The position numbers and the translations under genes were made by a program. Positions 1 to 23,315 of a stretch of 64,000 nt of DNA are shown here, in pieces. The stretch lies in assembly GCA_031553915.1 (NCBI GenBank), contig JAVBKT010000001.1:18891-82890 (forward strand), given 5' to 3'. Source of the DNA: Bacillota bacterium (GTDB taxonomy: Bacteria; Bacillota; Dehalobacteriia; UBA4068). The first letter of the stretch is position 1, and the number at the start of each line of letters is the position of its first letter. The notes under the pieces were generated by a model. The model was not told where the DNA came from. It saw nothing but the letters and a program-made list of their open reading frames with translations, and made no database searches.

Positions 1-64
1 CAGGACCAGGAACTCCGTCGCGATCGCCGATAATAATAACTTTTTTACCTTCGATTAAGCTCAC
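1..64 (-). CDS. grdA: Grd reductase selenoprotein A (GrdA), N-terminal fragment; gene continues beyond window start
   Basis: Reverse complement reads GGAGG, an 8-nt spacer, then GTG-SLIEGKKVIIIGDRDGVPGP. This is the characteristic GrdA N-terminus (GDRDG(I/V)PG). It sits in a cluster with trxA, trxB, grdB and grdE. Confidence 0.6.
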   Translation of the reverse strand, partial: MSLIEGKKVIIIGDRDGVPGP

Positions 65-125
65 TTGTGTTTCCTCCTTCCCGAAATAATTTTTATACTA
101 TCCCCAAAAGGGAGTATAAAACAGT

Positions 126-446
126 TTAGATATATTTTTTGACCATTGCTTCGATGTTTTCACGAGTTGCATCGTCTTTAACCAGTTCTTCTACTTTTTC
201 GCCGGCTTTGTAAATAACCATAGCAGGCAAACCCATAACACGCTGACCAATAGCCAGTCTACGGTTTTCTGTAGTATTCAATGCTGCAAATTTAAGATTG
301 CCGCCTGCGTTTTTGTCTGCCAGTTCATGGACGAAAGGCATCAATTCAGCGCAGGGAACGCAGCCATTGCCATAATAGTCAACAAATACATAACCATCGG
401 CTTGAAGTACTTCAGCTTCAAAATTATCTTTGTTCAGTTCGAGCAT
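126..446 (-). CDS. trxA: thioredoxin with GCVPC active site (Grd-system type)
   Basis: 106 aa with a thioredoxin fold. The active site is GCVPC rather than WCGPC, which is the signature of reductase-associated thioredoxins. Confidence 0.85.
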   Translation of the reverse strand: MLELNKDNFEAEVLQADGYVFVDYYGNGCVPCAELMPFVHELADKNAGGNLKFAALNTTENRRLAIGQRVMGLPAMVIYKAGEKVEELVKDDATRENIEAMVKKYI

Positions 447-500
447 TTTAATTTCCTCCTATTTTTGGTTGTATTATATCAAGCAAAAGCTTAATAACTA

Positions 501-1448
501 TTAATAACCTTCAATATAATGACCAGCTTCAACAGCGGCAATAGCGCCGTCAGCAGCTGCGGTAACAACCTGGCGCAAGCTTTTCTTGCGGGCATCGCCT
601 GCGGCAAAAACGCCAGGGATATTGGTATGCATATCATCATCGGTTATAATGTAGTTTTTCTCCATTTCCACTTTGCCTTCGAGGAAGGTGGTGTTGGGAA
701 TAAAACCAATGAAGCCGAAGACGCCAAAAGTACCGTCTTCTTCAGGAGCAAGAATTTCTCTCTCCTCACCGGTTTGGGTGTCCTTGACAGTCATAGCTTC
801 CAAAATGCCGTCGCCCTTCAGCTCAGTGATAACGCTGTTCCACATCACTTCTAATTTGGGGTTAGCAAAAGCTTTTTCCTGAATAGATTTTGCTGCGCGC
901 AGCTCATCACGGCGATGAACAACATAAACCTTGCGGGCAAATTTGGTCAGATACATAGCTTCTTCCACAGCGGAATCGCCGCCGCCAACCACATAAACTT
1001 CCATATCTTCAAAGAATGCAGCGTCGCAGGTAGCGCAGTAAGATACGCCTTTACCAACCAGTTCCTGCTCACCAGGGCAGCCAATAGGTCTGGGATAAGC
1101 GCCCGGAGCAAGAATGATGGTTTTTGCCTGGTATTCAGCATTCTTACAAATAACTTTTTTAATATCGCCTTCCAGCTGAAGATCGTCTACGGTATCGTAG
1201 ATTCTCTCTGCGCCAAAATGGTCAGCTTGATGAGCCATTCTCTCAATCAGAGAAGGGCCGCTATCGCCTTCCACGCCGCCAGGATAATTTTCGATTTCAT
1301 CGGTACTAACAATCTGGCCGCCGACTTTTGCCTTTTCGATAATCAAGGTATCAAGGCGGGCACGCCCAGCATAACTGCCTGCGGATAAACCAGCAGGGCC
1401 GGCACCAATAATAATAACGTCGTATATCTTTGTCATACTACTCCTCAT
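501..1448 (-). CDS. trxB: thioredoxin-disulfide reductase
   Basis: 315 aa. Has a GAGPAG FAD motif, a CATCD redox-active disulfide and a GGGDSA NADPH motif. Confidence 0.9.
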   Translation of the reverse strand: MRSSMTKIYDVIIIGAGPAGLSAGSYAGRARLDTLIIEKAKVGGQIVSTDEIENYPGGVEGDSGPSLIERMAHQADHFGAERIYDTVDDLQLEGDIKKVICKNAEYQAKTIILAPGAYPRPIGCPGEQELVGKGVSYCATCDAAFFEDMEVYVVGGGDSAVEEAMYLTKFARKVYVVHRRDELRAAKSIQEKAFANPKLEVMWNSVITELKGDGILEAMTVKDTQTGEEREILAPEEDGTFGVFGFIGFIPNTTFLEGKVEMEKNYIITDDDMHTNIPGVFAAGDARKKSLRQVVTAAADGAIAAVEAGHYIEGY

Positions 1449-1711
1449 CCTTCTCGTCCTGCGCTAAATTCTAGCCTTTCCCCCGCAAACAAGATTCCTG
1501 TGCAGCATTGCGCCAGCGCAGGGCACTAAACAAGCATACCTGTCTAGTGCCCATTGCTGGGATTATTCTGCACAATTTCCTGCCATATCATACCGGAGTA
1601 ATAATGGCCGGTAACTTTGCAAAAGGAACCATATTTACGGAGAGAAACAATATAAACAGGACCGCTTAAATTTATTTTCTCCGGTACGCAGCTTAGGCTA
1701 CGCAATAAAAA

Positions 1712-3052
1712 TTATTCAATAACAACGGTCTTTGGAGCATCCATATCTTCTTGGAGAAGCTGAAGAGCAGCTTCAACATATTTGCGGCGAAGAGCTTTTT
1801 CTTTATCAGCATTTTCCAGTTTAGGATTGCCAACCGGATGCGGAACGGCATTACCAACAACGATTCTGTTAACGCCGACCATCTCAGCGATGTTCGGGAT
1901 AGCAGTGATCTGAACAGTTGGGATACCAGCTTTTTCTAAACCTCTAGCAATCGTTGACCCGCAACGAGTAGAGGTGCCTCATGTGGAGGGCAGGATAACG
2001 CCATCAATACCGCCACGAGCCACGATATCAGCGGCAATAGCCTCACCAACTTCGGCGCAACGTTTGGAAACGGTGGTGCAGGCTGGCATTGCATAATAAA
2101 CTTTATCAAGTTTACCAACTCTGCCTTCGCCAACCATATCTTCCATAACATCCTTAGGCAAAAGTCTGTCTGGATCCTGCAATACATAGTCATTGAAATA
2201 ACCGGCATGAACTACTTCATAGGCTTCGAATACTTTATCGAGGTCATATGCAGCCCAAACAAGATTACTTCTGGTAGCCATTCTGTCAGGATTGCCTTTT
2301 GGTACCAAGCCGCCGTCAGAGACAAAAGCGATAGTAGCTTTGGACATATCTTTGATAGCTTTTGGCGGTTCGATGACTTCCAGTCTTTCCGGAACAACTT
2401 CAGTGACGAATGCTTCGCCGTTCAATTTCTGAACTATTTTTTCAACAGCACGTTCTGCCATTGATTTGTCAATCTTGGCATTGCGCAGAACGTCGCGGGT
2501 GAAGTAGTTATATTCTACTGGATCAGGAATATATTCCAAGCTGATAAGTCTGGTTTCTTTGCCGGTTTTGTCTTCCAACAAATACTTAGCCAATTTAGCC
2601 ATATCAGTGACATTGGGAACCATAGTACGGCTGTTATTGGAGCCTTTGGTGATATAGACTTCTTTGCGGTACATATCCATACCAGGACCAGATTCGTCCA
2701 TGCTGCTTACGCAAGGAATGCCGAGCTCATCCTGGACTGCTTTACACATAGCGCCGCATGCTACGCTATAGCGGCCAGCTGCGAATGCCGGACCGGCAAA
2801 GAATACGTCCGGATTATATTTTTTAACAAGAGCCAAACCTTCGGCAGAGTTTTTGTCGGTATCATCACCAAAATAGTCATCGCCGCAGATAACGGTTGCA
2901 ACGATTTCAAAATCATCACCAAGCTGAGCTTGAAGAGCCACACCAGGGCCGACTGGTCCTTCCTTAACAGAAAAGCCGACTGCTGCTGCTTCTTCAGCAC
3001 CGAGCTGACCAAAGAACTGGTTCAGATAGTGCACAACTTTATATTTAGCCAT
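1712..3052 (-). CDS. grdB: glycine/sarcosine/betaine reductase component B selenoprotein subunit (GrdB/GrdF/GrdH family); TGA at 1979-1981 read as selenocysteine
   Basis: The N-terminus MAKYKVVHYLNQFFGQLGAEE is GrdB-like. The ORF track stops at a TGA. The same frame continues as U-GTSTRCGSTIARGLEKAGIPTVQITAIP...VVIE to a TAA at 1712-1714. That gives 446 aa with the conserved U...C motif of Grd protein B. Confidence 0.85.
1935..1978 (-). other. putative bacterial SECIS stem-loop immediately 3' of the grdB UGA
   Basis: On the mRNA the sequence is UGA GGC ACCUCUA CU CGUUG-CGGGU-CAACG AUUGC UAGAGGU. This is a nested hairpin with an apical loop containing GGU about 20 nt after the UGA. Confidence 0.45.
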
Positions 3053-3076
3053 TTTTGTTACACCTCACCTTTCCAA

Positions 3077-4369
3077 TTAATATTCTTCCACAATAATCTT
3101 ACGGCTGCCGGTGTGGTCCATGCAACCTGCGATATTATACTGTTCAAGACCAATCACATCATCACCGGCATATTGCGGGATTGGTTCCGGATAATACAAC
3201 TTGGTTTTTTCGGTGCCGCCCAAGATTTTTTCAGCTTTGAAAGGAATCTTAGTGGTTTTTTCAAACATAGCGCCGGAAATAACGATCAAGTCGAGTTCGA
3301 TATCATTGTAGAGAATGGTATCAGCCAAAGTACCGGTAGCGGTCAATGGAGTGGTGGTGCAGCAAGTCTTAACACCAAGTCTTTCCATCGCAACACCAGT
3401 GGAAGAAATATCAGCATGTGGCATACCACCGAGGATTTTGACCAGGATAACGCCATCTGCATGCAGGATATTTTTAGCAAGGTTAGCTGCCATGGTAGCG
3501 GTTACGACACGGCCATCAAGGGTAGTGTTGGCAGGGCCGGAGATAACACCAATAAAGTTAAGGTCTTTGCCATGATGTTTGTAGAGCTCTTTAACAACGC
3601 CAAAATTCTGAATGCTATAGGAATCAAGGGCTTTCAGAGCGTTCCAACCGACAAAACCACCGTCCAAAACTTCGTTTGGATTATAAATTGTGGGGAAAGT
3701 GTTGGTAACAGGTGCGCCGTAAACAATTTTATCAGAAACAGCCATATAGTCGAACTGTGGGCTGTAGTTCTGATAGAAAAGAGCAACGCGGGGAAGCTTA
3801 GGATCTACGGTTTCGCCAACCTCAGATTCAAATACTTCGGTTTCTTTAACAGCCAGGCCTTCAGCAGCACGGGCTACGAAGACAGCAGCTTTAAAACCAG
3901 CAATCTTAACAGCATTTTCAAAATCGCGTTCTTCAACACCGTCAACTTTATAAGGAGCAACTGACAGGTTAACAAAATTAGAATATAGTGAGATGCCTGA
4001 CATCGGGCCATCACTATCAAGAACAGCGGTTTCAACCCTGTTAGTGCAAGGGTTGGATACTATGATAGCCGTACCGAGCAAGGATCTGGTTTTACCAGAG
4101 CCGGCAGTATGCATTTCGCCGAGGAAACCAGGGAAGTCCTGGTTGTCCACACCAACTTTGCAGCGAGGCTGAACTACATCAACGACGTTAACCATTCTGG
4201 CTTTATCACCAGGTTTTACGATAGTCAGGTCAACAGATTTAATTCTTTCATCCTTAAGAATCTCTGCTTCCAATTCTTTAAGGTTCAAATACAAAACGCC
4301 ATCTTTAGCGCTTGTAGCTGAGGACTCTTGAATATCTTTAATTTCAATCGAGTCAATCTCAAGTCTCAT
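3077..4369 (-). CDS. grdE: Grd reductase protein B proprotein (GrdE/GrdG/GrdI family, pyruvoyl-type alpha/beta precursor)
   Basis: 430 aa starting MRLEIDSIEIKDIQ...GVLYLNLKELEAEILKDE, similar to the GrdE proprotein. It lies directly upstream of grdB. Confidence 0.75.
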   Translation of the reverse strand: MRLEIDSIEIKDIQESSATSAKDGVLYLNLKELEAEILKDERIKSVDLTIVKPGDKARMVNVVDVVQPRCKVGVDNQDFPGFLGEMHTAGSGKTRSLLGTAIIVSNPCTNRVETAVLDSDGPMSGISLYSNFVNLSVAPYKVDGVEERDFENAVKIAGFKAAVFVARAAEGLAVKETEVFESEVGETVDPKLPRVALFYQNYSPQFDYMAVSDKIVYGAPVTNTFPTIYNPNEVLDGGFVGWNALKALDSYSIQNFGVVKELYKHHGKDLNFIGVISGPANTTLDGRVVTATMAANLAKNILHADGVILVKILGGMPHADISSTGVAMERLGVKTCCTTTPLTATGTLADTILYNDIELDLIVISGAMFEKTTKIPFKAEKILGGTEKTKLYYPEPIPQYAGDDVIGLEQYNIAGCMDHTGSRKIIVEEY

Positions 4370-4598
4370 TGTTTCATCCTCCCACCTTAATTAAATATTT
4401 GAAAAACATATTCAATACTTGGACAAAATTTGCCTAAGTATTTGAGCAAATTAAATTTTGACAAAATCAAGATACTTGTAATATTTTTATTATCTACAAT
4501 AATTATATTATAGGTATTTTCTAATGTCAATATTGGTCAAAGATCACCGAATAGAGCCATAATTCAAAATCACTAGACAATTTCGGCTATTCTTCTTG

Positions 4599-4635
4599 CT
4601 TGCAGATAGGCCACCATCGGTGACCTATCTGCAAG
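4599..4635. promoter_or_regulatory. perfect 12-bp-stem hairpin (cttgcagatagg / cctatctgcaag) with a 13-nt loop between the aminotransferase stop and the grdE promoter region
   Basis: Read directly from the sequence. There is no U-tract on either side, so it is either a non-canonical terminator or RNA-stability element, or a protein operator. Confidence 0.4.
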
Positions 4636-4687
4636 GTTGTTCCTGTTCAAGGTTGTTGTTTTTCTTATCAGTTGGCTGTTTTGCAGA

Positions 4688-6025
4688 CTATTCAAGTACT
4701 GCGTCGCAAGCTGCTGCCAGAATTTCCATACCCTGGTTCAACTGTTCGTCGGTCATTACCAGCGGCGGCAGGAATCTCATAACATTACCGCGGATTCCGC
4801 AGTTAAGTACGATCATGCCTCTCTTGCGGCATTCGGCCATAATATTGTTCAACAGGCCTGCTGCCGGTTTCTTGGTTACCGGGTCTTCGACGAATTCTGC
4901 TGCACACATCGCGCCTACGCCACGGATGTCGCCCAGTTGCGGATGTTTCTTCTGAATTTCAGTGCAGGCTGCTTTGATCTTGTCGCCAATTTGCAAAGCG
5001 CGTGCACAGAAATCTGTTTCTTTGAAGGTGTCAATTGCGGCACAGGATGCTGCGCATGCTACCGCATTACCCATATAAGTACCGCCCAACTGGCCAGGAA
5101 GAACCTTATCCAGTTCAGACTGTACCAGCGCTGCACTAAGAGGCATACCTGCTGCCATGGATTTGGCGATGGTCATAATGTCTGGTGCAAAACCAGCATA
5201 TTCAATACCAAACCATTTACCAGTACGGCAGAAACCGCTCTGGATTTCATCAGCAATATAGAGAATGCCGTATTTTTCGCACAGTTTTTTGATGCCTTGG
5301 ATATATCTTACCGGTTGCGGCAAGAATCCGCCTTCGCCTTGGATAAACTCGGCGATGAAGGCTGCGATGTATTCGCTGTCAAATACGTTGGCAAATTTGA
5401 AGGCTGCTTCTTCCAGCAGGGCGTCAACATATTGATCTTCGGTCAGGCTGCCGCCGTAACGATAATAATAGGCGCCATCCAGTCTGTAAAGCTCTGAGGG
5501 TTGCGGGCCTTGGCCATTCTTCTGCGGTGCACATTTATAAGTCAATGCACTGGTCAAAAGGGTGCGGCCATGGAAAGCGTTGGTCAGGGAGATCAAGCCA
5601 CCGCGTTTGGTTGCCGCTTTGGCTATTTTGGTGGCGTTTTCTACTGCTTCAGAGCCGGAGCTGGCAAATACTGCTCTCATCTCTTTGCCAAAAGGAGTGA
5701 TGGTGTTAATCTTTTCCGCCAAGACCAGATCTGGTTCATACTGGCAATAGTTGACCATCGTGCACATCATTTTGCCTGCCTGGTCTTGTACTGCTTTGAC
5801 TACTTTGTCCGGGCAATGACCCAAACTAAGTACGCCGACGCCGGCAAACATATCTAAATAGATATTGCCTTCTACGTCTTTAATTACTGCGCCTTTGGCT
5901 TCTTCGCCTACTACCGGGGCCATTGGCAATGCGCCGATCAGGTATGGTCTAGCTTTAGCTGTCAGAGCGCTTGTTGCTTCGCCCGGCTGCTTGACGATAT
6001 TTGCTAATTCTGTACCTTTTAACAT
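4688..6025 (-). CDS. class III (omega) PLP-dependent aminotransferase (GABA/ornithine/taurine-pyruvate AT family)
   Basis: 445 aa. Has the DEIQSGFCRTG motif and the PLP lysine in TIAKSMAAG. Confidence 0.8.
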   Translation of the reverse strand: MLKGTELANIVKQPGEATSALTAKARPYLIGALPMAPVVGEEAKGAVIKDVEGNIYLDMFAGVGVLSLGHCPDKVVKAVQDQAGKMMCTMVNYCQYEPDLVLAEKINTITPFGKEMRAVFASSGSEAVENATKIAKAATKRGGLISLTNAFHGRTLLTSALTYKCAPQKNGQGPQPSELYRLDGAYYYRYGGSLTEDQYVDALLEEAAFKFANVFDSEYIAAFIAEFIQGEGGFLPQPVRYIQGIKKLCEKYGILYIADEIQSGFCRTGKWFGIEYAGFAPDIMTIAKSMAAGMPLSAALVQSELDKVLPGQLGGTYMGNAVACAASCAAIDTFKETDFCARALQIGDKIKAACTEIQKKHPQLGDIRGVGAMCAAEFVEDPVTKKPAAGLLNNIMAECRKRGMIVLNCGIRGNVMRFLPPLVMTDEQLNQGMEILAAACDAVLE

Positions 6026-6122
6026 TTCTCTTTCCCTCCTAATTCTTTTCTTTATTTTTTAATCCCTCATACACCAGCTTAACTCTCCTAGCGTACTCGG
6101 GCATGAAAACCTTTTGTTTGCC

Positions 6123-7490
6123 TTAGATAGCGTCTTTTGCTCTGGCTGCTTTAGTGTTTGCTACAACCTGATCAACAAAGTAGCCGCTCTTGCCGGTATA
6201 TTTTTCCGGATCCATAACAGCTTCCAGTTGCTCACGGGTAACATTTTTAGCAACAGTTGCATTAGCCATCAGTTCATCGATGAAACAAGCGTCTTTTTCA
6301 AAGCAATCCATGCAGATCTCATAGACGATTTCATGAGCAGTTTGTTTGCCGAGCTTTTCGCCGAGCAAGAACATAATCGGTTCAGAATAGAGTAAACCTT
6401 TGGTCAGTTCCAGATTCTGTCTCATCCGTTTTTCATTAACGTTCAAGCCAGCCAACAATTTTTTAGCTTTAACTGCTGCGGTACCGGTAGCGATGAAGCA
6501 TTCGGTGATGCCTCTCCATTCCACACGCCATACAGCAGCGTCTCTTTCATGCTCACTAACCATTGAGTTCATCGAAGCATCAGCAGATGCTTTGGCCAAG
6601 CGGGCAAGAGCCTGGGAAATTTCCGAGAGGCCGGGGTTGCGTTTATGCGGCATGGTGGTAGAACCAACCATACCTTTGACAAAACCTTCGGTTACTTCGC
6701 CAAACTCGGTTTTCATCATGCAAGCACATTCGTGGCCAATATGGCACAGAGAATAAGCGGCAATGGAAAGCACGTTAAGGATGGAGGCAATTCTATCACG
6801 GCTGGAATGCCAAGCAATATCAGGAATATCCAAACCAAGCTTAGCTATGGTTTCATTGCTGATAATTTCGCCTTTATCGCCAAAGCCGGCCATAGTGCCG
6901 ACAGCGCCGGAGAGCTGGCCAACAAAATCGCGGGCATAAACTTCCTTCATTCTTTCGATAATGCGGCGGAGTTCGCTGACCCAGATAGCTACTTTGTAGC
7001 CAAAGGTAATCGGCAGACCCTGCTGGCCATGAGTACGGCCAACCATAACAGTGTCTCTGTATTTTTCAGCAAGTACCAAACCTGCTTCTTCAACATCGCG
7101 AAGGTCATTGTAGATGATTTTGAAAGCGCGTTTCATGGACATGATAAAACCGGTATCGGAGATATCCTGCGTGGTTGCGCCCAAATGCAGGTATTCACCA
7201 TAACCATTTTCACACAGATGTTCAAGAGCACGCAATGCCGGGATAAAAGGATGGCCGACAGCAGCTACGCCTTTGCCGAGCTCATCAAGATCGACGAGGC
7301 TGGCATCAGCTCTTTTGCTAATTTCCGCAGCAGCCTCTTTGGGGATAATGCCATATGCTGCCTGGGTCTGAGCTAAAGCTTTTTCGATGTCAAACCAGTT
7401 CTGAACGATGGTTCTGTCATCAAATTCTTTGCTGAGCTCAGGGGTGCTAAACATTGTGTTGAACAACTTGGAATCAATCATACTTGCCAT
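6123..7490 (-). CDS. fumarate-lyase superfamily enzyme, adenylosuccinate lyase / 3-carboxymuconate cycloisomerase subgroup
   Basis: 455 aa. The GSTTMPHKRNP signature matches the GSSxMPxKxN family motif. The N-terminal FSTPEL...VQNWFDIEKALAQTQAAYGIIP motif is typical of PurB/PcaB. Confidence 0.75.
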   Translation of the reverse strand: MASMIDSKLFNTMFSTPELSKEFDDRTIVQNWFDIEKALAQTQAAYGIIPKEAAAEISKRADASLVDLDELGKGVAAVGHPFIPALRALEHLCENGYGEYLHLGATTQDISDTGFIMSMKRAFKIIYNDLRDVEEAGLVLAEKYRDTVMVGRTHGQQGLPITFGYKVAIWVSELRRIIERMKEVYARDFVGQLSGAVGTMAGFGDKGEIISNETIAKLGLDIPDIAWHSSRDRIASILNVLSIAAYSLCHIGHECACMMKTEFGEVTEGFVKGMVGSTTMPHKRNPGLSEISQALARLAKASADASMNSMVSEHERDAAVWRVEWRGITECFIATGTAAVKAKKLLAGLNVNEKRMRQNLELTKGLLYSEPIMFLLGEKLGKQTAHEIVYEICMDCFEKDACFIDELMANATVAKNVTREQLEAVMDPEKYTGKSGYFVDQVVANTKAARAKDAI

Positions 7491-7667
7491 AAATCCAATC
7501 CTCCATGCTTCTAATTTTTTATTTTAAATAAACACTTATATCAAACGTTATATGGCACAGACGATAGCGCCGGCAAAAACATAGCACAACACTAGAGAAA
7601 AAGATAATAAAAAAGGCTGTGTCAATATCTTCTGTTTCAACAAAACGAAAAGCTAAAACGATTAGGG

Positions 7668-7693
7668 ACAGAATCAAAACGTTTTGATTCTGT
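7668..7693. promoter_or_regulatory. perfect 13+13 bp palindrome acagaatcaaaac|gttttgattctgt upstream of the lyase operon promoter region; candidate operator
   Basis: Seen in the sequence. It lies about 180 bp upstream of the lyase start codon, inside an 800-bp non-coding stretch. Confidence 0.3.
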
Positions 7694-8310
7694 GAAATCA
7701 TCTGCTTTCATGATGCTGATAAACAAACATCAGATACAAACCACAGCATGCCTCCTCAACTGAGAGTATAGTTATCGGATAGCGAAAATTACATGTTCCG
7801 TTATTAAAATATGTACAGATCAGTCCATTTTTTGGCTGCTCCCCAAGCTCAACCATGCATATATATACCTGCCGAAAACCGCATAAAAAAGACTTGCCGA
7901 GGCCAAAAAAATGGCTGGTATCCCTCACCCCTAACGCTGAAAGGCTTGGGATATGCGGCACGAATACGCACTGCATATTATCCACGAATTAAGCATATTT
8001 TACAGCGGTTATATGCATTTCTACTGAAAAAAGCAACCAATATCCTTATAATATGGTACTAGAGATAATTTTACCGTATTTATCAGCAAAAGTCAAGCGT
8101 TTGCCTTTTTTTGACCACTCGATTAAGCTTGGTTTATCTTTGCCAATTTTATATAAATATGCTAAATTTTCAGAATATTATGCACTGACTTTTTTTGCCC
8201 TAATTTTGCCTGCATTTAGACAATTATTTTATATTTATATTAAATAATATAAATATAAATATTAAAAAAAGCTATTAATATTTATACCATTTTGTAATAA
8301 TTACAGCCAG

Positions 8311-8892
8311 TTACTGAATAACTTTTTCCACATAATATTTCTCTGTGGCAAATTGCTCTGCCAAAGAAAGATCATGGGTAATCAGCAAAATTAATTTTTG
8401 CTGCCAATCCTCAACTATCCGGCTCATTATCCTTGCTGCCAATTGATCATCCAGACCAGCTGTCGGCTCATCCATCATCAAAATATCGCCGCCATAGGCT
8501 AAAGCGCGGGCAATGGCCACTCTTTTTTGCATACCGCCGGAAAGCTCCGCCGGATATTTGTGCGCAGCTTCCACAAGCTCAACCTTTTCTAAAAAATGCC
8601 AGGCTTTTTGCCGGTCTCCCTGGATAACAAAAGCGACATTGCTCAAGGCATCATACCAGGGCAGCAATCTGTTTTCCTGGAAAACCATGGCCAGCTGCTT
8701 ATCCTCCAGGCCGGAAATATGCCCACTATCAGGCGTGATAATCCCTGCTAAACAGTTAAACAATGTCGTTTTGCCACTGCCGGAGGGGCCAATAAGGCAT
8801 ACCACTCCCCTCCCCGGCAAGCGCAGGGAAAAATCCGCCAGCACTTTTTTATGGTCAAAGCTGACATTCACTTTATCGAGGATAATTGTCAT
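8311..8892 (-). CDS. ABC transporter ATP-binding protein (NitT/TauT family, short form)
   Basis: Has a Walker A motif GPSGSGKTT, the LSGGMQKR signature and a Walker B motif ILMMDEPTAGLD. It overlaps the permease gene by 4 nt. Confidence 0.85.
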   Translation of the reverse strand: MTIILDKVNVSFDHKKVLADFSLRLPGRGVVCLIGPSGSGKTTLFNCLAGIITPDSGHISGLEDKQLAMVFQENRLLPWYDALSNVAFVIQGDRQKAWHFLEKVELVEAAHKYPAELSGGMQKRVAIARALAYGGDILMMDEPTAGLDDQLAARIMSRIVEDWQQKLILLITHDLSLAEQFATEKYYVEKVIQ

Positions 8893-9647
8893 TTGCGTCT
8901 ACCTCTTTTAAGCAAGCGCTGCAGCAATTTTTCCAGACAAATTGCCAGCAGTATCACAACAATGGTCCAGACAAAAACATCCGCTGTTTCCAAATATACC
9001 TTGGCTGTTTGCAGCTGGCCGCCGATAGCCATTTTAGGATAAGCGATAACCTCGGCCGTAATGCCGGATTTCCAGGCCAATCCCATACCGGTAGTGGCGG
9101 CGGCCAAAATATAGGGCTGCAAGGACGGCAAATAAATATTGCGCCATTTACGCCAAATGCCCACATGAAACATATCCGCCAGCACCAAAAGCTGCTTATC
9201 GGTCTCCTCTATGCCGGTAAAGGTGTTGGCCCAGGCAATAGGCAATACCATCAAAGCAGAAATAAACACCGGCAGAACACCGCTGGCCAGCCAGACCAAT
9301 GCCAGCAAAATGAAGGACGCAACCGGCGCGGCGCGCACAATTTTGATTACTGGCGAAAATATGGCATATATAACTTTATTTTTAAACATGGCAATCGCAA
9401 GGATAATGCCTGCTGCCATGCCACAAATAAAACCAAGAATAATCCGCAACAAGGAGGCCAGGGTAATCCGCCAGAACTCTGCAGTGATAATCAGCTCAAA
9501 AAAACGCTCTCCGACTGCAAACGGCGTTGGCAAAAGCAGCTCTTTGTTGACAGCGGCGGCCAAAAGCCACCAGACCAGCAACCAAAAGAGTGCAACAGCA
9601 ATGCCTTTGAGTATGGAGAGCGTTGTTTTCTTTACTTTATTGTTCAT
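8889..9647 (-). CDS. ABC transporter permease (NitT/TauT/SsuC-like)
   Basis: 252 aa with six predicted TM segments and the permease EAA-like region. Confidence 0.8.
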   Translation of the reverse strand: MNNKVKKTTLSILKGIAVALFWLLVWWLLAAAVNKELLLPTPFAVGERFFELIITAEFWRITLASLLRIILGFICGMAAGIILAIAMFKNKVIYAIFSPVIKIVRAAPVASFILLALVWLASGVLPVFISALMVLPIAWANTFTGIEETDKQLLVLADMFHVGIWRKWRNIYLPSLQPYILAAATTGMGLAWKSGITAEVIAYPKMAIGGQLQTAKVYLETADVFVWTIVVILLAICLEKLLQRLLKRGRRK

Positions 9648-9658
9648 GCCTTAGATTT

Positions 9659-10723
9659 CTATTCGCTGTAGTAAATATCCTCCCCGGGCATAGCGCCACC
9701 TACAGAAGAAGGATCCGCATCAAACAAAACCTGTAAATAGCCGCTTACCTCTTGCTCAATAGCTCCGCTTTTGGCAAAGGTAAGGCTCATCTTGGGGATG
9801 GCGACCGCGGCAATGGCCTCATTATCAATAATGCCATGCGTAGCGCACAGAGCCGCTGTTTCGCTAACATTGTCGATAGCGTAATTTATTGAAGCCTCAA
9901 GATCAGTCAGGAAGGCGGCAATCGCCTCCGGATTAGCGGCAATAAAATCCTTGCGAGCGGCTACACAGGTCATTGTCAACTTGCCGCCGGTGCTGGCAGC
10001 CCAATCATCATTCAGATCAAGCGCCACTCTCACCTGGTCGTTTTTGCCCAAAACTACTGAAACATTGGGCTCGGGCAGCATCGCAATATCAACCTCGCCG
10101 CTGGCCATCAAGGTTGCCAGTTCCGCATGTTCGCTTTTCCAGACAATCTCCACATCTTCACCGACAGTCAGCCCTGCCTCAGCAAGCAGATATTCTAAAA
10201 TGTACTGAGGATTGGAGCCTTGTCCGGTAGCGTAAATTGTCTTACCAGCCAGGTCGGCAAGAGAATTAATGCTCTCCCCCGCTTCGAGGATATATAGCGA
10301 GCCATAGTTGATAATGGCCAGCATCTGCAAATCGCCATCGGTTTTAGCGTAAAGCTTGGCGGCAAGGTTAGTCGGCATTGCCGCAATATCAGCATCACCA
10401 TTGCTAATAGCAGCAACGATTTCATCAGGGGTGCTGACCACGCTATAGGCATAGTTGCCGGCATCATCAATCATCTTGGCCATACCTACACCAGACGGGC
10501 CCTTGAGTGTCATCACAGCAGGCGTAACAGCGGCGACATCTCCGCCATTGTTATTATTATCCGGCACATCGTTTTCTGCGGGAGTGCAGGCCACCAACAA
10601 GGCTGTGAGCAAAACCAAAACCAGCAATAAAAGCAAACTCTTTTTCATCCTTACTTTTCCTCCTAAAGGTATATTGTTTACCACTTGGCTCAACTTAATA
10701 ATTTTATTTGAAAAATAATTCAA
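9659..10723 (-). CDS. ABC transporter substrate-binding lipoprotein (NMT1/SsuA/ThiY-like)
   Basis: Has a signal peptide followed by a lipobox (LVAC). A Gly/Asn-rich linker follows. The rest is a periplasmic-binding-protein fold of the NitT/TauT family. Confidence 0.8.
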   Translation of the reverse strand: MNYFSNKIIKLSQVVNNIPLGGKVRMKKSLLLLLVLVLLTALLVACTPAENDVPDNNNNGGDVAAVTPAVMTLKGPSGVGMAKMIDDAGNYAYSVVSTPDEIVAAISNGDADIAAMPTNLAAKLYAKTDGDLQMLAIINYGSLYILEAGESINSLADLAGKTIYATGQGSNPQYILEYLLAEAGLTVGEDVEIVWKSEHAELATLMASGEVDIAMLPEPNVSVVLGKNDQVRVALDLNDDWAASTGGKLTMTCVAARKDFIAANPEAIAAFLTDLEASINYAIDNVSETAALCATHGIIDNEAIAAVAIPKMSLTFAKSGAIEQEVSGYLQVLFDADPSSVGGAMPGEDIYYSE

Positions 10724-10923: not shown

Positions 10924-12753
10924 TTATTTATTATAAGCGCCTTGATTTTTTTTCTTATTTCTAACGGCTGCTTCAGCAACAGCTTCCTTTTTCTGCTGGT
11001 CTATCCTGAAGCCTGGATATTTTGACCGGGGTTGATATGAGGTATGCAGCCATTCATGCGCATTATGCCCGCCCGGTTCGCCAATCAATTCTTCATATAG
11101 CTTTTTGACGATGGGGTTCTCATGCGATTTACGCAGAGGCATTTTGGCGTCCTGTTTATAAAGAGCTTTGGCGCGCAGCTCACGCAGCTCGTGGAAATTG
11201 CGCACTGACGCCGACTGCACCGGCTGTCCGCCGCCATTGACGCAGCCGCCGGGGCAAGCCATGATTTCAACCATATCATAATGGACATCGCCACTTTTAA
11301 TCTTGTTCAAAAGATTGCGGGCATTAGCCAAACCAGAGGCACAAGCCACACGCACCTTACGTCCATTGAGGTCATACTCAGCTTCTTTGATCCCGGAAAT
11401 ACCGCGTACTTCTTTGAAATCGACCTTTTCCAGCTCTTTGCCGGTAACCAGCTCCACAACAGTACGCAAGGCAGCTTCCAGAACACCGCCGGTAGCGCCA
11501 AATATCGCACCGGCACCAGTAGAAATGCCAAAGGCCGGATCAAAATCTTCATCGGGCAACTCAGTAAACATAATGCCTGCGCGCGAAATCATTCTCGCCA
11601 GCTCCCGGGTAGTGAGTGACACATCAATATCATCAAGACCATATACTGCCTGTTCATCTTTACGGTGGATCTCAAATTTTTTGGCTGTGCAAGGCATAAC
11701 ACTGACCACAAAAATATCTTTAGGGTCTATGCCCATTTTGCGCGCATAATAAGTTTTCATCATCGCCCCATACATCTGCTGTGGTGATTTGCAGGTGGAG
11801 AGGTTAGGAATAAACTCTGAGAAATATTGCTCGCAAAAACGAATCCAGCCCGGGCTGCAAGAGGTGATCAAAGGCAGGTTTTCGCCTGATTCCAAGCGTT
11901 TTAAAAATTCTGTGCCTTCTTCCACAATGGTCAGGTCAGCAGTAACGTCAACATCGAAAACACCGTCAAAGCCCAGCCGCCTCAGCGCTGCAACCATCTT
12001 GCCTTCCACATTGCTGCCAATCGGCATATCAAAGCATTCGCCTAGGGTAACACGCACAGATGGCGCAGTACCGACCACAACATGCTTGGTTGGGTCGCCC
12101 AAGGCTTGCCAAACCTTTTCCGTATCATCACGTTCTGTCAAAGCGCCGGTGGGGCAGACAGCAACACATTGTCCGCAGGAAACACAGGCAACTTCATCAA
12201 GATTGCGATCAAAAGCGCAGCTGATATGGGTAGCAAACCCGCGGTCATTGGGGCCGATCACTGCCACGCCCTGATTATTTTTACATACTGCCACGCAACG
12301 GCGGCAGAGAATGCACTTAGAATTATCGCGAATCAAATGCAGGGTTGAGTCTTCAATTTTGGGGGTTGGGTTGCCGCCAAAGCGAATATGCTCAACACCA
12401 AAATCTTTAGCCATTTTCTGCAATTCACAGTTTTGATTGCGTAGGCAAGTAAGGCAATCCTTGCGGTGGTTTGATAAGATCAGTTCCAAGGTCATTTTGC
12501 GTGATCTGGTAATTAAAGCGGTATTGGTAAAAACTTCCATACCGTCGCTGACCGGATATACGCAAGAGGCAACCGGCGCTCTGGCGCCTTTAACCTCAAC
12601 AACGCACATCCTGCAAGCGCCAATGGCATTGATTGCTTTCATATAGCATAGGGTCGGAATGTCAATTCCCGCCAAGCGCGCTGCCTCTAAGATAGTGGAC
12701 TGGGCCGGGCATTCAACCTCTATTCCGTTGATTTTTACTTTGACAGTATCCAC
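10924..12753 (-). CDS. hydA: [FeFe] hydrogenase catalytic subunit HydA (bifurcating/NADH-dependent type, N-terminal 2Fe-2S plus 4Fe-4S domains); motif L1 reads TSCSPGW
   Basis: The H-cluster motifs are L2 VMPCTAKKFE and L3 EIMACPGGCVNGGGQP. L1 is TSCSPGW, encoded ACC TCT TGC AGC CCG GGC TGG. Confidence 0.85.
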   Translation of the reverse strand: MDTVKVKINGIEVECPAQSTILEAARLAGIDIPTLCYMKAINAIGACRMCVVEVKGARAPVASCVYPVSDGMEVFTNTALITRSRKMTLELILSNHRKDCLTCLRNQNCELQKMAKDFGVEHIRFGGNPTPKIEDSTLHLIRDNSKCILCRRCVAVCKNNQGVAVIGPNDRGFATHISCAFDRNLDEVACVSCGQCVAVCPTGALTERDDTEKVWQALGDPTKHVVVGTAPSVRVTLGECFDMPIGSNVEGKMVAALRRLGFDGVFDVDVTADLTIVEEGTEFLKRLESGENLPLITSCSPGWIRFCEQYFSEFIPNLSTCKSPQQMYGAMMKTYYARKMGIDPKDIFVVSVMPCTAKKFEIHRKDEQAVYGLDDIDVSLTTRELARMISRAGIMFTELPDEDFDPAFGISTGAGAIFGATGGVLEAALRTVVELVTGKELEKVDFKEVRGISGIKEAEYDLNGRKVRVACASGLANARNLLNKIKSGDVHYDMVEIMACPGGCVNGGGQPVQSASVRNFHELRELRAKALYKQDAKMPLRKSHENPIVKKLYEELIGEPGGHNAHEWLHTSYQPRSKYPGFRIDQQKKEAVAEAAVRNKKKNQGAYNK

Positions 12754-12774
12754 GAATATTATCCTCCCCTTTAC

Positions 12775-14568: not shown

Positions 14569-14645
14569 GCTGTTTTACCTCCCAATGATATTAGGCCGAC
14601 TCCGGCCGATACCGCCATTAAACGACAGAGTATGCTAAAATTTTA

Positions 14646-15023
14646 TTATTTGCTGTCAGCCGCGCCGATGGTATATTCATCAACCACACGGTGATTTACC
14701 AGATGTTCGCTGACAACTATGGCTGCTTTTTCTGCATCCATCTTCACATAGGTAATTTTCTCTTTGCCTGGTTCAAATATTTCCACAACAGGCTCCAAGC
14801 GGCAAACACCAATGCAGCCGGTTTGAGAAACCAAAACCCCCTGCAGGTTTCGCTTATTCACTTCTTCCACAAATTTATTCAGCACTGGCCGGGCGCCGGC
14901 GGCAATACCGCAGGTAGCCATCCCTACAACAACACGAGTATCTTCGCTGCTGTTGTCTTTACGCAAATTCATTTTGCCTTGCATTTCATCACGTAAAGCT
15001 TTTAATTCTTCAATTGATTTCAT
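14646..15023 (-). CDS. thioredoxin-like [2Fe-2S] ferredoxin (HndB/HydD-like small subunit)
   Basis: 125 aa with the Cys pattern CG...C...CIGVC. Confidence 0.7.
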   Translation of the reverse strand: MKSIEELKALRDEMQGKMNLRKDNSSEDTRVVVGMATCGIAAGARPVLNKFVEEVNKRNLQGVLVSQTGCIGVCRLEPVVEIFEPGKEKITYVKMDAEKAAIVVSEHLVNHRVVDEYTIGAADSK

Positions 15024-15055
15024 CTTTGCCCTCCTACTATATCAAAATCAAACTT

Positions 15056-15604: not shown

Positions 15605-15687
15605 CTAAATTATCTCCAAACAATGTGAACTGTGAAAGAAGTATCCAGCCTAGCCATTAGAGATGCGAATTCATGCGCCCCGGACGA

Positions 15688-16275: not shown

Positions 16276-16396
16276 AGTATAACATAATAAAATACAGAAA
16301 GATAGTGTTTTTTTGCAATTTTTTTAATAAAACCAGCAATTACCCTGTGCGATATTAAAGAACAAAAAAAATATTTAAGTATTGCCGGGGTTTTGC

Positions 16397-17149: not shown

Positions 17150-17157
17150 ACAATGGC

Positions 17158-17490: not shown

Positions 17491-17493
17491 CGC

Positions 17494-22098: not shown

Positions 22099-22119
22099 TA
22101 TTTCCTCGATAACCTCATA

Positions 22120-23223: not shown

Positions 23224-23315
23224 AAAGCAGTCCTCCCTTTTGTGCAATATATATATTATACACATTTTATGGTTTCTTTCAAGGGAGGTGCTTGTCAAAT
23301 CAACGCATAATAACG

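What the first reader, a model, noticed from the sequence alone, without database searches (positions are those of the whole stretch)
1..7490. Non-canonical Grd-type selenoprotein reductase locus coupled to an aminotransferase and a PurB/PcaB-like lyase
The gene order on the minus strand is lyase, class-III aminotransferase, [hairpin], grdE-like, grdB-like(Sec), trxB, trxA(GCVPC), grdA. No grdA lies between grdE and grdB, and the thioredoxin pair is inserted between grdB and grdA.

Two extra enzymes are read in the same direction directly upstream, with only about 97 bp between them and no terminator. A NitT/TauT-family ABC importer lies just beyond, past an 800-bp non-coding region.

Fumarate-lyase-family enzymes cleave N-succinyl or amino adducts to release fumarate. 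Class-III aminotransferases act on omega-amines such as GABA, ornithine and taurine. Together with a Grd-type reductase this could be a Stickland-type reductive branch for a substrate other than glycine, sarcosine or betaine.

The GrdE-like proprotein has Cys only at about residues 69, 107, 345/346 and 415, so it has no mid-protein Cys where I would expect the GrdE self-cleavage site. This is from memory and needs an alignment to confirm.
Basis: inference. Interest (0 to 1): 0.55.

Follow-up and report, generated by a model that had tools for sequence, protein, structure and literature searches.

The report
Divergent glycine-reductase-like selenoenzyme gene cluster
An anaerobic Clostridia-type genome carries an intact selenium-dependent "glycine-reductase-like" system whose substrate-binding subunits belong to a widespread, uncharacterised branch lacking the hallmarks of glycine, sarcosine and betaine reductases, so it probably reduces another, still unknown compound. 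The neighbouring aminotransferase and lyase are only loosely tied to it.

Summary
On the minus strand it runs lyase, class-III aminotransferase, hairpin, grdE-like, grdB-like (UGA-Sec plus SECIS), trxB, trxA (GCVPC), then the start of grdA.

The GrdE-like and GrdB-like pair is not a canonical glycine, sarcosine, betaine, fluoroacetate or proline reductase. Every NCBIfam equivalog cut-off is missed. The GrdE "SGN-C-VSAC" self-cleavage loop is replaced by a shorter Cys-free "GWN-A-LKAL". GrdB has UxxSxxC instead of UxxCxxC, HAGYF instead of HGGYD, and MPACTTV instead of TTGNGT/TTGTGT.

The pair belongs to a large uncharacterised family found in Clostridia, Syntrophomonas, Dehalobacterium, Geobacteraceae, Desulfobacterota and Synergistota. 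Family members usually sit next to organic-anion transporters and GntR or IclR regulators. In Dehalobacterium formicoaceticum the family coexists with two canonical GrdE proteins.

The lyase and aminotransferase accompany these grd genes only in one monophyletic clade. In that clade the flanking housekeeping genes are syntenic too. A strong terminator-like hairpin and a conserved consensus promoter separate the aminotransferase from grdE. Functional coupling is therefore possible but unproven.

The lyase is of the CMLE/Tad1/XcbD type, not the PurB type. The aminotransferase is GabT-like.

Verdict: a new variant of a known kind, substrate unknown.

The parts
1..64 (-). 5' end of grdA (selenoprotein A), GTG start at 64, running off the window
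   Evidence: The sequence reads VSLIEGKKVIIIGDRDGVPGP. It is identical to the start of the complete grdA, which has the CFVU Sec motif, in the 88%-identical relative L006, where grdC follows.
126..446 (-). trxA, a Grd-type thioredoxin with the GCVPC active site
   Evidence: NF047697 ThioredTrxAClost scores 148.8 bits against a cut-off of 140; PF00085.
501..1448 (-). trxB, thioredoxin reductase (the true start is probably the ATG at 1436)
   Evidence: TIGR01292 scores 367 bits against a cut-off of 343. Close homologues are 311 aa long.
1712..3052 (-). grdB-like selenoprotein B (446 aa, Sec358 encoded by UGA at 1979-1981)
   Evidence: PF07355 matches. TIGR01918 (the family-level model) scores 396 bits against a cut-off of 65. 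GrdB, GrdF, GrdH and PrdB equivalog models all score far below their cut-offs. The UGA is conserved in more than 40 loci.
1941..1978 (-). SECIS-like hairpin directly 3' of the UGA
   Evidence: Rfam SECIS_4 scores 29 bits, E 0.0034, below the gathering score of 38.
3077..4369 (-). grdE-like subunit (430 aa), predicted not to be processed
   Evidence: PF09338 scores 277 bits. GrdG scores 192 against 780 and FarE 165 against 675. The processing loop is replaced.
4502..4530 (-). sigma-70 consensus promoter of the grd operon (TTGACA-17-TATAAT)
   Evidence: It matches 12 of 12 positions. The element is present at the same place in most of the 8 relatives aligned (GACA of the -35 hexamer is invariant), but L009 and L005 have a degenerate -10.
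4599..4635 (-). terminator-like hairpin after the aminotransferase gene
   Evidence: The stem is 17 bp, -29.8 kcal/mol, z -6.4. Hairpins conserved in position but not in sequence occur in L044, L011 and L009; the L009 hairpin is followed by a U-run.
4688..6025 (-). GabT-like class-III aminotransferase
   Evidence: PF00202 scores 364 bits. TIGR00700 scores 415 against a cut-off of 507. The PLP Lys (AKS, 287-289) and both substrate-binding Arg residues of E. coli GabT are conserved.
6123..7490 (-). fumarase/aspartase-superfamily lyase of the CMLE/Tad1/XcbD branch
   Evidence: PF00206 and PF10397 match. XcbD scores 480 against 600 and purB 295 against 326. The best solved relatives are 3c8t, CMLE and Tad1. 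The GSTTMPHKRN loop and THGQ are present.
7491..8310 (.). AT-rich non-coding spacer upstream of the lyase
   Evidence: No Rfam hit. The sequence is not conserved in relatives.
8311..10723 (-). NitT/TauT-type ABC importer: ATPase 8311-8892, permease 8889-9647, lipoprotein SBP 9659-10648(10723)
   Evidence: SsuA_fam, TauB/SsuB-like and BPD_transp_1 hits, all below equivalog cut-offs. The importer is absent from the otherwise syntenic L008.

Best explanation
The window's left end encodes a thioredoxin-driven, selenocysteine-dependent reductase of the glycine-reductase (Grd) type. It comprises thioredoxin reductase, thioredoxin, selenoprotein A and a substrate-specific 'protein B' made of GrdE-like and GrdB-like subunits. 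By synteny, GrdC and GrdD lie just outside the window.

Protein B belongs to a distinct, widespread and uncharacterised clade. It is not cleaved to form a pyruvoyl group, which makes it like betaine GrdI and fluoroacetate FarE. Its selenocysteine pocket is also altered.

Inferred mechanism, by analogy with Grd enzymes: Sec358 of the GrdB-like subunit attacks the alpha-carbon of an X-CH2-COO- compound and expels X. The carboxymethyl group passes to the Sec of GrdA. GrdCD release it as acetyl-phosphate, which yields ATP. NADPH, TrxB and TrxA re-reduce GrdA.

The substrate is most likely not glycine, sarcosine or betaine. It is probably an anionic carboxymethyl compound that needs no Schiff base.

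The lyase-aminotransferase pair is a separate, clade-specific transcription unit, probably dealing with a fumarate-related amino compound. It may feed the reductase or follow it, but this link is not shown.
For: Shown:
- The genes are intact and the Sec and SECIS are present.
- Family-level models are met but every substrate-specific model is missed.
- The window GrdE-like scores lower against the GrdG model (192 bits) than BCCT-linked GrdI-like proteins (357) or canonical-loop proteins (445-630).
- The processing site 'SGN-C-V(S/A)A-C-DK' becomes 'GWN-A-LKA-L-D', with a 3-5-residue deletion, in all family members.
- GrdB has UxxSxxC, HAGYF and MPACTTV. None of the published GrdB or GrdF motifs is met, whereas a GrdF-like control passes (motifs from PMC9751293).
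- The family has at least 120 clusters at 53-95% identity and 47 genome loci across phyla, with a conserved E-B-(trxB)-trxA-A-C-D core.
- Neighbours are anion transporters (TAXI-TRAP, DctPQM, DASS, OPA/ACS-type MFS, TctABC, sulfonate-type ABC) and GntR or IclR regulators.
- D. formicoaceticum has two canonical GrdE proteins, one of which (WP_089609584) is encoded next to grdA/C/D; both are expressed. It also has the family member P0011, 63% identical to the window protein.
- Literature: FarE and GrdI lack the processing Cys, and FarB lacks CxxC (PMC10838667).
- A separate promoter and a terminator-like hairpin are present.

Inferred: the chemistry, the nature of the substrate, and the presence of grdCD to the left.
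Against: - No experiment exists for any member of the family.
- Many family loci carry a full grdA-C-D set, as a primary glycine reductase would.
- Some loci are next to amino-acid-type Liv ABC transporters or corrinoid/MtaA-like methyltransferases. This fits glycine or sarcosine produced by betaine demethylation.
- The role of the GrdE pyruvoyl group in glycine binding is itself debated (PMC9908766), so its absence does not strictly exclude glycine.
- Whether the window's genome has a second, canonical grd set is unknown.
Confidence: 0.6

Rival explanations
1. It is simply this lineage's glycine reductase, highly divergent in sequence, and the lyase and aminotransferase are unrelated neighbours. 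Glycine would be reduced to acetyl-phosphate and ammonia without a GrdE pyruvoyl group.
For: - The operon carries grdA, trxAB and, in relatives, grdCD.
- The family occurs in syntrophs, Geobacteraceae and Desulfobacterota, where reductive-glycine or glycine-reductase metabolism is discussed (PMC7547702, PMC12827605).
- Geobacter- and Desulfobacterota-type GrdB-like proteins keep an 'STSGN.T' motif close to the GrdB 'TxGNxTxV'.
- Liv-type ABC transporters and methyltransferase neighbours occur in some loci.
- The bifurcating hydrogenase next door recalls proposed H2-glycine metabolism (PMC9751293).
Against: - All glycine-specific tests fail: TIGR01917 scores 372 against 602, and the published GrdB motifs, the processing Cys and UxxCxxC are all missing.
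- The Asp of H(G/A)GYD, which is kept in the GrdF-like and GrdH-like controls and in the other non-family GrdB-like proteins aligned here, is Phe in this family.
- The family coexists with canonical, expressed GrdE in D. formicoaceticum.
- The usual neighbours are anion transporters, not amino-acid carriers.
Confidence: 0.25
2. One reading: ABC importer, lyase, aminotransferase and reductase form one pathway. An imported amino or N-succinyl-type compound would be converted by the lyase and aminotransferase into the reductase's substrate, or its leaving group would be processed by them.
For: - The order (ABC)-lyase-AT-grdE-grdB recurs in the window, L044, L064, L008 (without the ABC system), L009 and a 125-kb JGI contig.
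- The lyase, AT and GrdE of these loci each form one monophyletic clade with similar branching.
- The AT clade (66-95% identity) was seen only in this context; the next relative is 55% identical.
- The nearest outgroups of both AT and lyase sit in fumarase/aspartase/malic-enzyme clusters, so the two plausibly work as a pair around fumarate.
Against: - Synteny also covers hydABC upstream and pyrF-aspS-hisS downstream, so adjacency follows from common descent.
- A conserved terminator-like hairpin and an own promoter precede grdE.
- Sister family members at 62-65% identity work without the lyase and AT, next to MFS, DASS or TRAP transporters instead.
- No chemically complete route from an omega-amine or succinyl adduct to X-CH2-COO- can be written with these genes alone. 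An aldehyde-oxidising step is missing.
Confidence: 0.25
3. The B component is a decaying or inactive paralogue. A UxxCxxC-less GrdB-like gene was called a likely pseudogene in strain DCMF.
For: Loss of the first Cys of UxxCxxC and of the GrdE processing Cys. Holland et al. 2019 drew that conclusion for one DCMF gene (PMC6778437).
Against: - Both ORFs are intact and the UGA and SECIS are retained.
- UxxSxxC and many other residues are invariant across more than 40 loci from several phyla.
- A consensus promoter is present at the same place in most relatives aligned.
- Dedicated grdA, trx and grdCD genes sit in the same operon.
Confidence: 0.03

Closest known systems
Glycine reductase protein B (GrdB + GrdE) of Clostridium sticklandii, Eubacterium acidaminophilum and C. 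difficile
   Same: Same two Pfam families (PF07355, PF09338). Sec lies in an 'STUG' context. The operon includes grdA, trxB, the GCVPC trxA and, in relatives, grdCD. Presumably the same carboxymethyl-selenoether to acetyl-phosphate chemistry.
   Different: About 31-34% identity to canonical GrdE. No Asn-Cys processing site, so no pyruvoyl group. UxxSxxC, HAGYF and MPACTTV motifs. No grdA between E and B. All equivalog cut-offs are missed.
Betaine reductase GrdH/GrdI
   Same: The E-like subunit is not processed. The E-like and B-like genes are adjacent, without an intervening grdA.
   Different: The GrdI/H-like loci found here (L047, L048, L051, L053) keep UxxCxxC and HAG(Y/F)D and sit next to BCCT betaine carriers. 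The window pair does none of this. NF040795 scores 358 against 775.
Fluoroacetate reductase FarB/FarE of Cloacibacillus porcorum (PMC10838667)
   Same: A Grd-type B component that lacks the processing Cys residues and has a modified CxxC. It acts on a non-amine X-CH2-COO- substrate and feeds GrdA and GrdCD. This is the best precedent for the mechanism proposed here.
   Different: NF053623 FarE scores only 165 against 675. It is a different clade with different neighbours.
B components of 'unclear specificity' and the 'likely pseudogene' in Ca. Formimonas warabiya DCMF and the DFE-SYN MAG (PMC6778437, PMC9768040)
   Same: Non-canonical GrdB/E pairs that do not cluster with the glycine, sarcosine or betaine enzymes. 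One lacks UxxCxxC.
   Different: Those were only noted in passing.
CMLE / Tad1 / CreD / XcbD branch of the fumarase-aspartase superfamily (for the lyase)
   Same: Best NCBIfam and PDB matches. The catalytic GSxxMPxKxN loop and the TH.Q motif are present.
   Different: Below every curated cut-off. The nearest homologues (56-59% identity) are in TctCBA-PrpD-lyase-fumarase-malic-enzyme clusters of unknown substrate.
4-aminobutyrate:2-oxoglutarate aminotransferase GabT (for the aminotransferase)
   Same: 318 bits to E. coli GabT. The PLP Lys and both carboxylate-binding Arg residues are conserved.
   Different: TIGR00700 is below cut-off. It forms a separate clade seen only beside this lyase. The next relative (55% identity) is flanked by fumarase and aspartase genes.

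Membership tests
Grd/Prd selenoprotein-B superfamily (TIGR01918, PF07355) with PF09338 partner | Family-level HMMs above cut-off; in-frame UGA with a SECIS; adjacent E-like subunit | tested here: met
   TIGR01918 scores 396 against 65. PF07355 scores 358 bits and PF09338 277 bits. The UGA is at 1979-1981 with a SECIS_4-like hairpin.
Glycine reductase GrdB/GrdE | GrdE proprotein with a conserved Asn-Cys (Cys242) that self-cleaves to give a pyruvoyl group | tested here: not met
   'SGNCV(S/A)ACDK' in canonical sequences versus 'GWNALKALD' here. Ala244 replaces the Cys and the loop is 3-5 residues shorter (site from PMC9908766).
Glycine reductase GrdB/GrdE | GrdB UxxCxxC motif | tested here: not met
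   U358-G-T-S-T-R-C364. UxxSxxC occurs in all family loci, and UxxCxxC in the GrdF/GrdH-like controls.
Glycine reductase GrdB/GrdE | Published GrdB motif set (GPxF[NF]AGRYG, AHGGxD[QTAP], RV[IL]PxD, TxGNxTxV; PMC9751293) and the TIGR01917 cut-off | tested here: not met
   None of the four motifs is present. TIGR01917 scores 372 against 602.
Glycine reductase GrdB/GrdE | Operon partners grdA, trxB, trxA, grdC, grdD | tested here: inconclusive
   The grdA start, trxA and trxB are in the window. grdC and grdD are seen only in relatives, including the 88%-identical L006.
Sarcosine reductase GrdF/GrdG | NF040794 and NF040793 cut-offs; IHGGYDR and TTGTGT motifs | tested here: not met
   409 against 800 and 192 against 780. 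The motifs are absent here but present in control L050.
Betaine reductase GrdH/GrdI | NF040795 cut-off; BCCT carrier neighbour; unprocessed GrdI | tested here: not met
   358 against 775. No BCCT gene is present. Only the 'unprocessed' feature is shared.
Fluoroacetate reductase FarB/FarE | NF053623 FarE cut-off | tested here: not met
   165 against 675.
D-proline reductase PrdA/PrdB | TIGR04483 and TIGR04480 cut-offs | tested here: not met
   PrdB scores 74.7 against 300. There is no PrdA hit; the only Prd-cluster hit for the GrdE-like protein is PrdD at 18.7 against 320.
Adenylosuccinate lyase PurB | TIGR00928 or NF006764 cut-offs; being the genome's purine-pathway enzyme | tested here: not met
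   295 against 326 and 106 against 446. The closest solved structures are CMLE and Tad1, not PurB. Whether another purB exists in the genome is not testable with 64 kb.
XcbD / CMLE (pcaB) | NF052536, NF006554 and TIGR02426 cut-offs | tested here: not met
   480 against 600, 380 against 595 and 290 against 356.
GabT 4-aminobutyrate aminotransferase | TIGR00700 cut-off; PLP Lys; Arg141 and Arg398 equivalents | tested here: inconclusive
   415 against 507, which is not met. The catalytic Lys and both Arg residues are conserved.

The most novel reading that the evidence does not exclude
This may be a representative of a whole, uncharacterised class of pyruvoyl-independent Grd-type selenoenzymes. 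The class would use a non-amine, anionic carboxymethyl compound (X-CH2-COO-) as a terminal electron acceptor and make ATP via acetyl-phosphate. Candidate substrates are sulfoacetate, a haloacetate or thioether-acetate, or a phosphono- or other acid-substituted acetate.

In one clade of Clostridia known so far only from metagenome assemblies, some of them from gut samples, a dedicated omega-aminotransferase and a C-N/C-S lyase would have been recruited to channel an imported precursor into it. That would be a new Stickland-like reductive branch, widespread from guts to sediments.
Probability: 0.3. Interest if true: 0.8.

Novelty: new variant of a known kind. Interest (0 to 1): 0.5.

Why it matters
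Grd-type reductases let strict anaerobes make ATP by substrate-level phosphorylation from a simple reductive cleavage. Only glycine, sarcosine, betaine and, recently, fluoroacetate are known substrates.

The clade described here spans Clostridia, syntrophs, metal reducers and sulfate reducers. Annotation pipelines label it 'glycine reductase', yet it fails the sequence tests for the known substrates. If it acts on another compound, two things follow:
- Metabolic reconstructions that infer glycine reduction, or the reductive glycine pathway, from these genes would be wrong for many genomes.
- A new anaerobic electron acceptor would be waiting to be identified.

The signatures found here (short Cys-free GrdE loop, PRCK, GGMPH.D; GrdB UxxSxxC, HAGYF) allow the clade to be recognised. 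Cultured carriers (Dehalobacterium formicoaceticum, Ca. Contubernalis alkaliaceticus) make the question testable.

Tried and rejected
- Riboswitch or leader upstream of grdE, upstream of the lyase, or in the 263-bp grdB-trxB gap. Rfam at E<=1 found nothing relevant. Alignments of the three spacers from relatives show only the promoter, the RBS and non-homologous hairpins.
- Metagenome scan with the aminotransferase. The patterns were too specific, and only two unrelated weak hits came back.
- Recovering the window's own contig or organism. The proteins are on a 108,853-bp NCBI contig, but it is not in the context index. Only short Logan contigs came back, and no names are attached.
- Solved structures. 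There are none for the GrdB-like or GrdE-like proteins. The SBP only hits a 'nitrate transport protein' of unknown ligand. Structure prediction of GrdB-like was not attempted, because no permitted alignment could be built and a single-sequence model would not resolve the pocket.
- 'The unusual gene order is diagnostic'. Rejected, because the same order occurs in a GrdG/F-like cluster (L050) and, with a BCCT gene inserted, in GrdI/H-like loci.
- 'The lyase is XcbD, so this is sulfonate or CoM chemistry'. The XcbD score (480) is about the same as the score for the generic subfamily model (468), and both are below cut-off. It remains only a lead.
- Sulfoacetate as the substrate. The literature holds nothing linking it to Grd enzymes. 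It remains a speculative candidate.
- Pseudogene reading. Rejected on conservation.

Full report
**1. What is in the sequence**

All genes of the finding lie on the minus strand and are intact.
- A 455-aa lyase: 6123-7490.
- A 445-aa class-III aminotransferase (AT): 4688-6025, after a 97-bp gap.
- A 430-aa GrdE-like protein: 3077-4369, after a 318-bp gap.
- A 446-aa GrdB-like selenoprotein: 1712-3052, after a 24-bp gap.
- trxB: 501-1448, after a 263-bp gap.
- trxA: 126-446.
- The first 21 codons of grdA: 64-1.

The GrdB-like gene has an in-frame UGA at 1979-1981. A hairpin that matches Rfam SECIS_4 follows directly (29 bits, E 0.003, below the gathering score).

TrxA carries GCVPC and meets the Clostridial Grd-type TrxA model. 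TrxB meets TIGR01292.

Upstream, past 820 bp of AT-rich non-coding DNA, lies a NitT/TauT-type ABC importer. Beyond that is a HydABC-type [FeFe]-hydrogenase operon.

**2. The reductase is Grd-type but belongs to no characterised specificity group**

Family-level models are met: TIGR01918 scores 396 against a cut-off of 65, and PF07355 and PF09338 both match.

Every substrate-specific NCBIfam model is missed by a wide margin:

| Model | Score | Cut-off |
|---|---|---|
| GrdB | 372 | 602 |
| GrdF | 409 | 800 |
| GrdH | 358 | 775 |
| PrdB | 75 | 300 |
| GrdG | 192 | 780 |
| FarE | 165 | 675 |

As a yardstick against the GrdG model, proteins with the canonical processing loop score 445-630 and BCCT-linked GrdI-like proteins score 357. 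The window family scores only 192-198.

An exhaustive search shows how the family sits in the wider superfamily. At 50% clustering the window's family collapses into essentially one cluster. The next clusters are at 46% and about 41% identity. The PF09338 superfamily holds 864 such clusters.

**3. The GrdE processing site is gone**

C. difficile GrdE is cleaved at Cys242, giving an N-terminal pyruvoyl group (PMC9908766).

I aligned the window protein with 130 superfamily members. I also aligned it with two canonical GrdE sequences of Dehalobacterium formicoaceticum, taken from a paper's supplement.
- The canonical sequence reads 'SGN-C-V(S/A)A-C-DK(N/I)TTY'.
- The window protein and all its relatives read 'VGWN-A-LKA-L-D---SY'.
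- The Asn is kept, both Cys residues are lost, and the loop is 3-5 residues shorter.

The protein's only Cys residues are at 70, 108, 336, 337 and 416.

FarE and GrdI likewise lack the processing Cys residues and are not proproteins (PMC10838667).

Other family signatures are an invariant 'PRCK' (Cys70, mostly Val/Ala/Ile in non-family sequences, although Cys recurs in the related short-loop clusters) and 'GGMPH.D' (canonically 'EEGYGNPD.D').

**4. The GrdB-like pocket is changed too**

In more than 40 family loci the Sec context is ST-U-G-(T/S)-S-T-R-C, that is UxxSxxC. GrdF-like and GrdH-like controls have UxxCxxC.

None of the GrdB or GrdF motif elements published by Nobu et al. (PMC9751293) is present. 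A GrdF-like control (L050) passes the GrdF set.

The conserved H(G/A)GYD becomes HAGYF (Asp to Phe).

The TTG(N/T)GT segment differs by group:
- Firmicutes-type members (and the Ca. Adiutrix MAG L016): MPACTTV.
- Geobacteraceae: STSGNCTV.
- Other Desulfobacterota: STSGNATV.

I infer, but have not shown, that these residues line the substrate site. Losing the acidic residue together with the Schiff-base carbonyl argues against an amine substrate.

**5. The family is large and widespread, with a conserved core and variable periphery**

The protein search returned at least 120 clusters at 53-95% identity. The genome scan returned 47 loci, of which about 40 belong to the family and the rest are more distant relatives at 30-35% identity. 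Sources include Syntrophomonas, uncultured Clostridia and Firmicutes MAGs (one labelled Hadza, one from a human gut catalogue), a goat-duodenum Oscillospiraceae MAG, Dehalobacterium formicoaceticum, Ca. Contubernalis alkaliaceticus, Geobacteraceae, Ca. Adiutrix, Syntrophaceae, Desulfobacterales, Desulfovibrionaceae and Synergistota.

The core is E-B-(trxB)-trxA-grdA-grdC-grdD. It also occurs in a GrdG/F-like cluster (L050).

Recurrent neighbours are:
- GntR/FCD regulators (14 loci) and IclR regulators (15 loci).
- TAXI-TRAP (7-8 loci), DctPQM, a DASS symporter, an OPA/ACS-type MFS and TctABC.
- Liv-type ABC systems.
- Here and there Fe-ADH plus aldehyde dehydrogenase, corrinoid protein plus MtaA-like methyltransferase, radical-SAM and RDH-like Fe-S proteins.

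The predominance of organic-anion carriers suggests an anionic substrate. The Liv-type and methyltransferase neighbours keep glycine or sarcosine alive as an alternative.

**6. Coexistence with the canonical enzyme**

D. formicoaceticum carries the family member P0011, 63% identical to the window protein. It sits beside GntR, an MFS carrier, trxA and grdA.

The same genome encodes two canonical GrdE proteins with the 'SGNCV(A/S)ACDK' loop. One of them (WP_089609584) is encoded next to grdA/C/D, and both were detected in the proteome of dichloromethane-grown cells (supplement of PMC10327494).

Holland et al. (PMC6778437) had already met B components of 'unclear specificity' in strain DCMF, and dismissed one that lacked UxxCxxC as a likely pseudogene. 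The strict conservation seen here argues against decay.

**7. The lyase and the aminotransferase**

The lyase belongs to the CMLE/Tad1/CreD/XcbD branch of the fumarase-aspartase superfamily.
- NCBIfam scores are XcbD 480 against 600, a generic subfamily model 468 against 626, and purB 295 against 326.
- The best solved relatives are 3c8t, CMLE and trans-aconitate decarboxylase.
- The catalytic loop GSTTMPHKRN and the THGQ motif are intact.
- It is therefore not a housekeeping-type PurB.
- Its nearest homologues outside the clade (56-59% identity) sit in TctCBA-PrpD-lyase-fumarase-malic-enzyme clusters. The grd-linked lyases form one clade nested among them.

The AT is GabT-like.
- It scores 318 bits to E. 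coli GabT, with the PLP Lys and both carboxylate-binding Arg residues conserved.
- It is below the TIGR00700 cut-off.
- Its clade (66-95% identity) was found only beside this lyase and grd.
- Identity then drops to 55%, for a gene flanked by class-I fumarase and an aspartase/fumarase-II gene.

Both enzymes thus have roots in fumarate-centred clusters and plausibly act as a pair. What they act on is unknown.

**8. How tightly are they coupled to the reductase?**

The order (ABC)-lyase-AT-grdE-grdB recurs in six places: the window, L044, L064, L008 (which lacks the ABC genes), L009 and a 125-kb JGI contig. In an NJ tree these GrdE proteins form one monophyletic clade, and the lyase tree branches in a similar way.

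Three points weaken the case for coupling:
- In the same loci hydABC upstream and pyrF-aspS-hisS downstream are also syntenic, so conserved adjacency is what common descent predicts.
- The AT gene is followed by a strong hairpin (4599-4635, -29.8 kcal/mol, z -6.4). Relatives have hairpins conserved in position but not in sequence, and the L009 hairpin is followed by a U-run. Then comes a perfect TTGACA-17-TATAAT promoter, which is present at the same place in most of the 8 relatives aligned (degenerate in L009 and L005). The grd operon therefore has its own transcription start.
- Sister family members of equal similarity (62-65% identity) function without the lyase and AT.

I conclude that a functional link is possible but not demonstrated, for instance as a peripheral feeder or a product-processing module. 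I rate that pathway model at about 0.25.

**9. Most likely mechanism**

Shown: the genes, the motifs, the family, the contexts and the separate promoter.

Inferred from established Grd enzymology (Andreesen's mechanism; the FarBE precedent, PMC10838667):
- Sec358 displaces a leaving group X from X-CH2-COO-.
- The carboxymethyl group is handed to GrdA-Sec.
- GrdCD convert it to acetyl-phosphate.
- TrxB and TrxA recycle the selenide-thiol.

Three features are missing: the Schiff-base carbonyl, the first CxxC Cys and the pocket Asp. Combined with the anion-carrier neighbours, this makes a non-amine, anionic substrate the best guess. Its identity is open, and sulfoacetate, halo-, thio- or phosphono-acetates are only candidates.

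The rival that this is a pyruvoyl-independent glycine reductase keeps about 0.25.

**10. Novelty and score**

This is a new variant of a known kind. It is a recognisable, conserved and broadly distributed clade of Grd-type protein B with unknown substrate. Annotation currently labels it 'glycine reductase'. The literature touches on it only as 'unclear specificity' or 'pseudogene'.

A 2026 preprint reporting Grd-family genes in a flavin-induced neighbourhood also suggests that this enzyme family occurs in more contexts than the known substrates explain (10.64898/2026.02.13.705874).

The lyase/AT coupling that motivated the finding is the weakest part. Interest is 0.5.

Noticed in passing
window 10924-18819: A bifurcating-type [FeFe]-hydrogenase operon lies directly upstream. 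It comprises HydA 10924-12753, a NuoF-like gene 12775-14568, a small HATPase_c protein 15056-15604 and a NuoE-like gene 15688-16275. A PHP-domain protein and a HydS-like sensory hydrogenase (17494-18819) follow. The HydA/NuoF genes keep this position next to the lyase/grd block in L008, L044 and the JGI contig. This hints at H2 as the electron donor for the reductase.
   Followed up: partly
window 4455-4467: An inverted repeat, ATTTTG-T-CAAAAT, lies in the ~130-nt AT-rich 5' leader of grdE. A similar AAATTTTGTCC lies 40 nt downstream. It could be an operator, but it is not conserved in the more distant relatives.
   Followed up: partly
window 1449-1711: A 263-bp spacer between grdB and trxB contains a GGGCACTA...TAGTGCCC hairpin. 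Relatives also have 210-270-bp spacers here, but without sequence conservation. Syntrophomonas and L004 have only 40-106 bp.
   Followed up: partly
window 7491-8310: An 820-bp non-coding stretch of 31-38% G+C lies between the ABC ATPase gene and the lyase. It is 445-630 bp long in relatives and not conserved. It holds only spurious short ORFs and has no Rfam hit.
   Followed up: partly
L001/L002 12727-13548; L004 57-920; L012: A ~275-aa Fe-S protein with a weak reductive-dehalogenase/QueG-like match sits inside or next to the grd cluster in four family loci. In D. formicoaceticum it sits where trxB normally is. It may be an alternative electron-input protein.
   Followed up: no
L041 (Desulfovibrionaceae MAG), about 1-9000: The gene order is GntR, Fe-alcohol dehydrogenase, aldehyde dehydrogenase, grdE-like, grdB-like, TAXI-TRAP. 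This layout would fit X-CH2-CH2-OH -> X-CH2-CHO -> X-CH2-COO- -> reductive cleavage, for example from isethionate- or choline-like compounds. The clade is only 41% identical to the window protein.
   Followed up: no
L003, L013, L026, L033: MtaA/CmuA-like methyltransferase and corrinoid-protein genes lie next to family grd clusters. This suggests demethylation upstream of the reductase in some lineages.
   Followed up: no
L056-L060 (lyase homologues): A recurrent, apparently uncharacterised cluster reads TctCBA, (aconitase or URO-D-like), MmgE/PrpD-like, CMLE-like lyase with overlapping genes, class-II fumarase, malic enzyme, GD_AH dehydratase. It is probably a tricarboxylate or adduct catabolic pathway that yields fumarate.
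   Followed up: no
window 19815-31999 and 37244-58104: The rest of the window examined is housekeeping: the dcw cell-wall cluster (murB, murC, murG, ftsW, murD, mraY, murE/F, PBP, mraW), glutamate dehydrogenase, dnaE, RNase Y, recA, proS, ispG, rseP-like and dxr. No purB-like gene or regulator for the grd block was seen among the ORFs scanned up to 58.1 kb; those beyond that, and a few in between, were not scanned.
   Followed up: yes
window 9659-10723: The SBP ORF as listed starts at a TTG (354 aa). The likely start is the ATG giving MKKSLLLL...LLVAC-TP, which is a lipoprotein signal with a lipobox. This start matches the 329-aa gene call on a Logan contig.
   Followed up: partly
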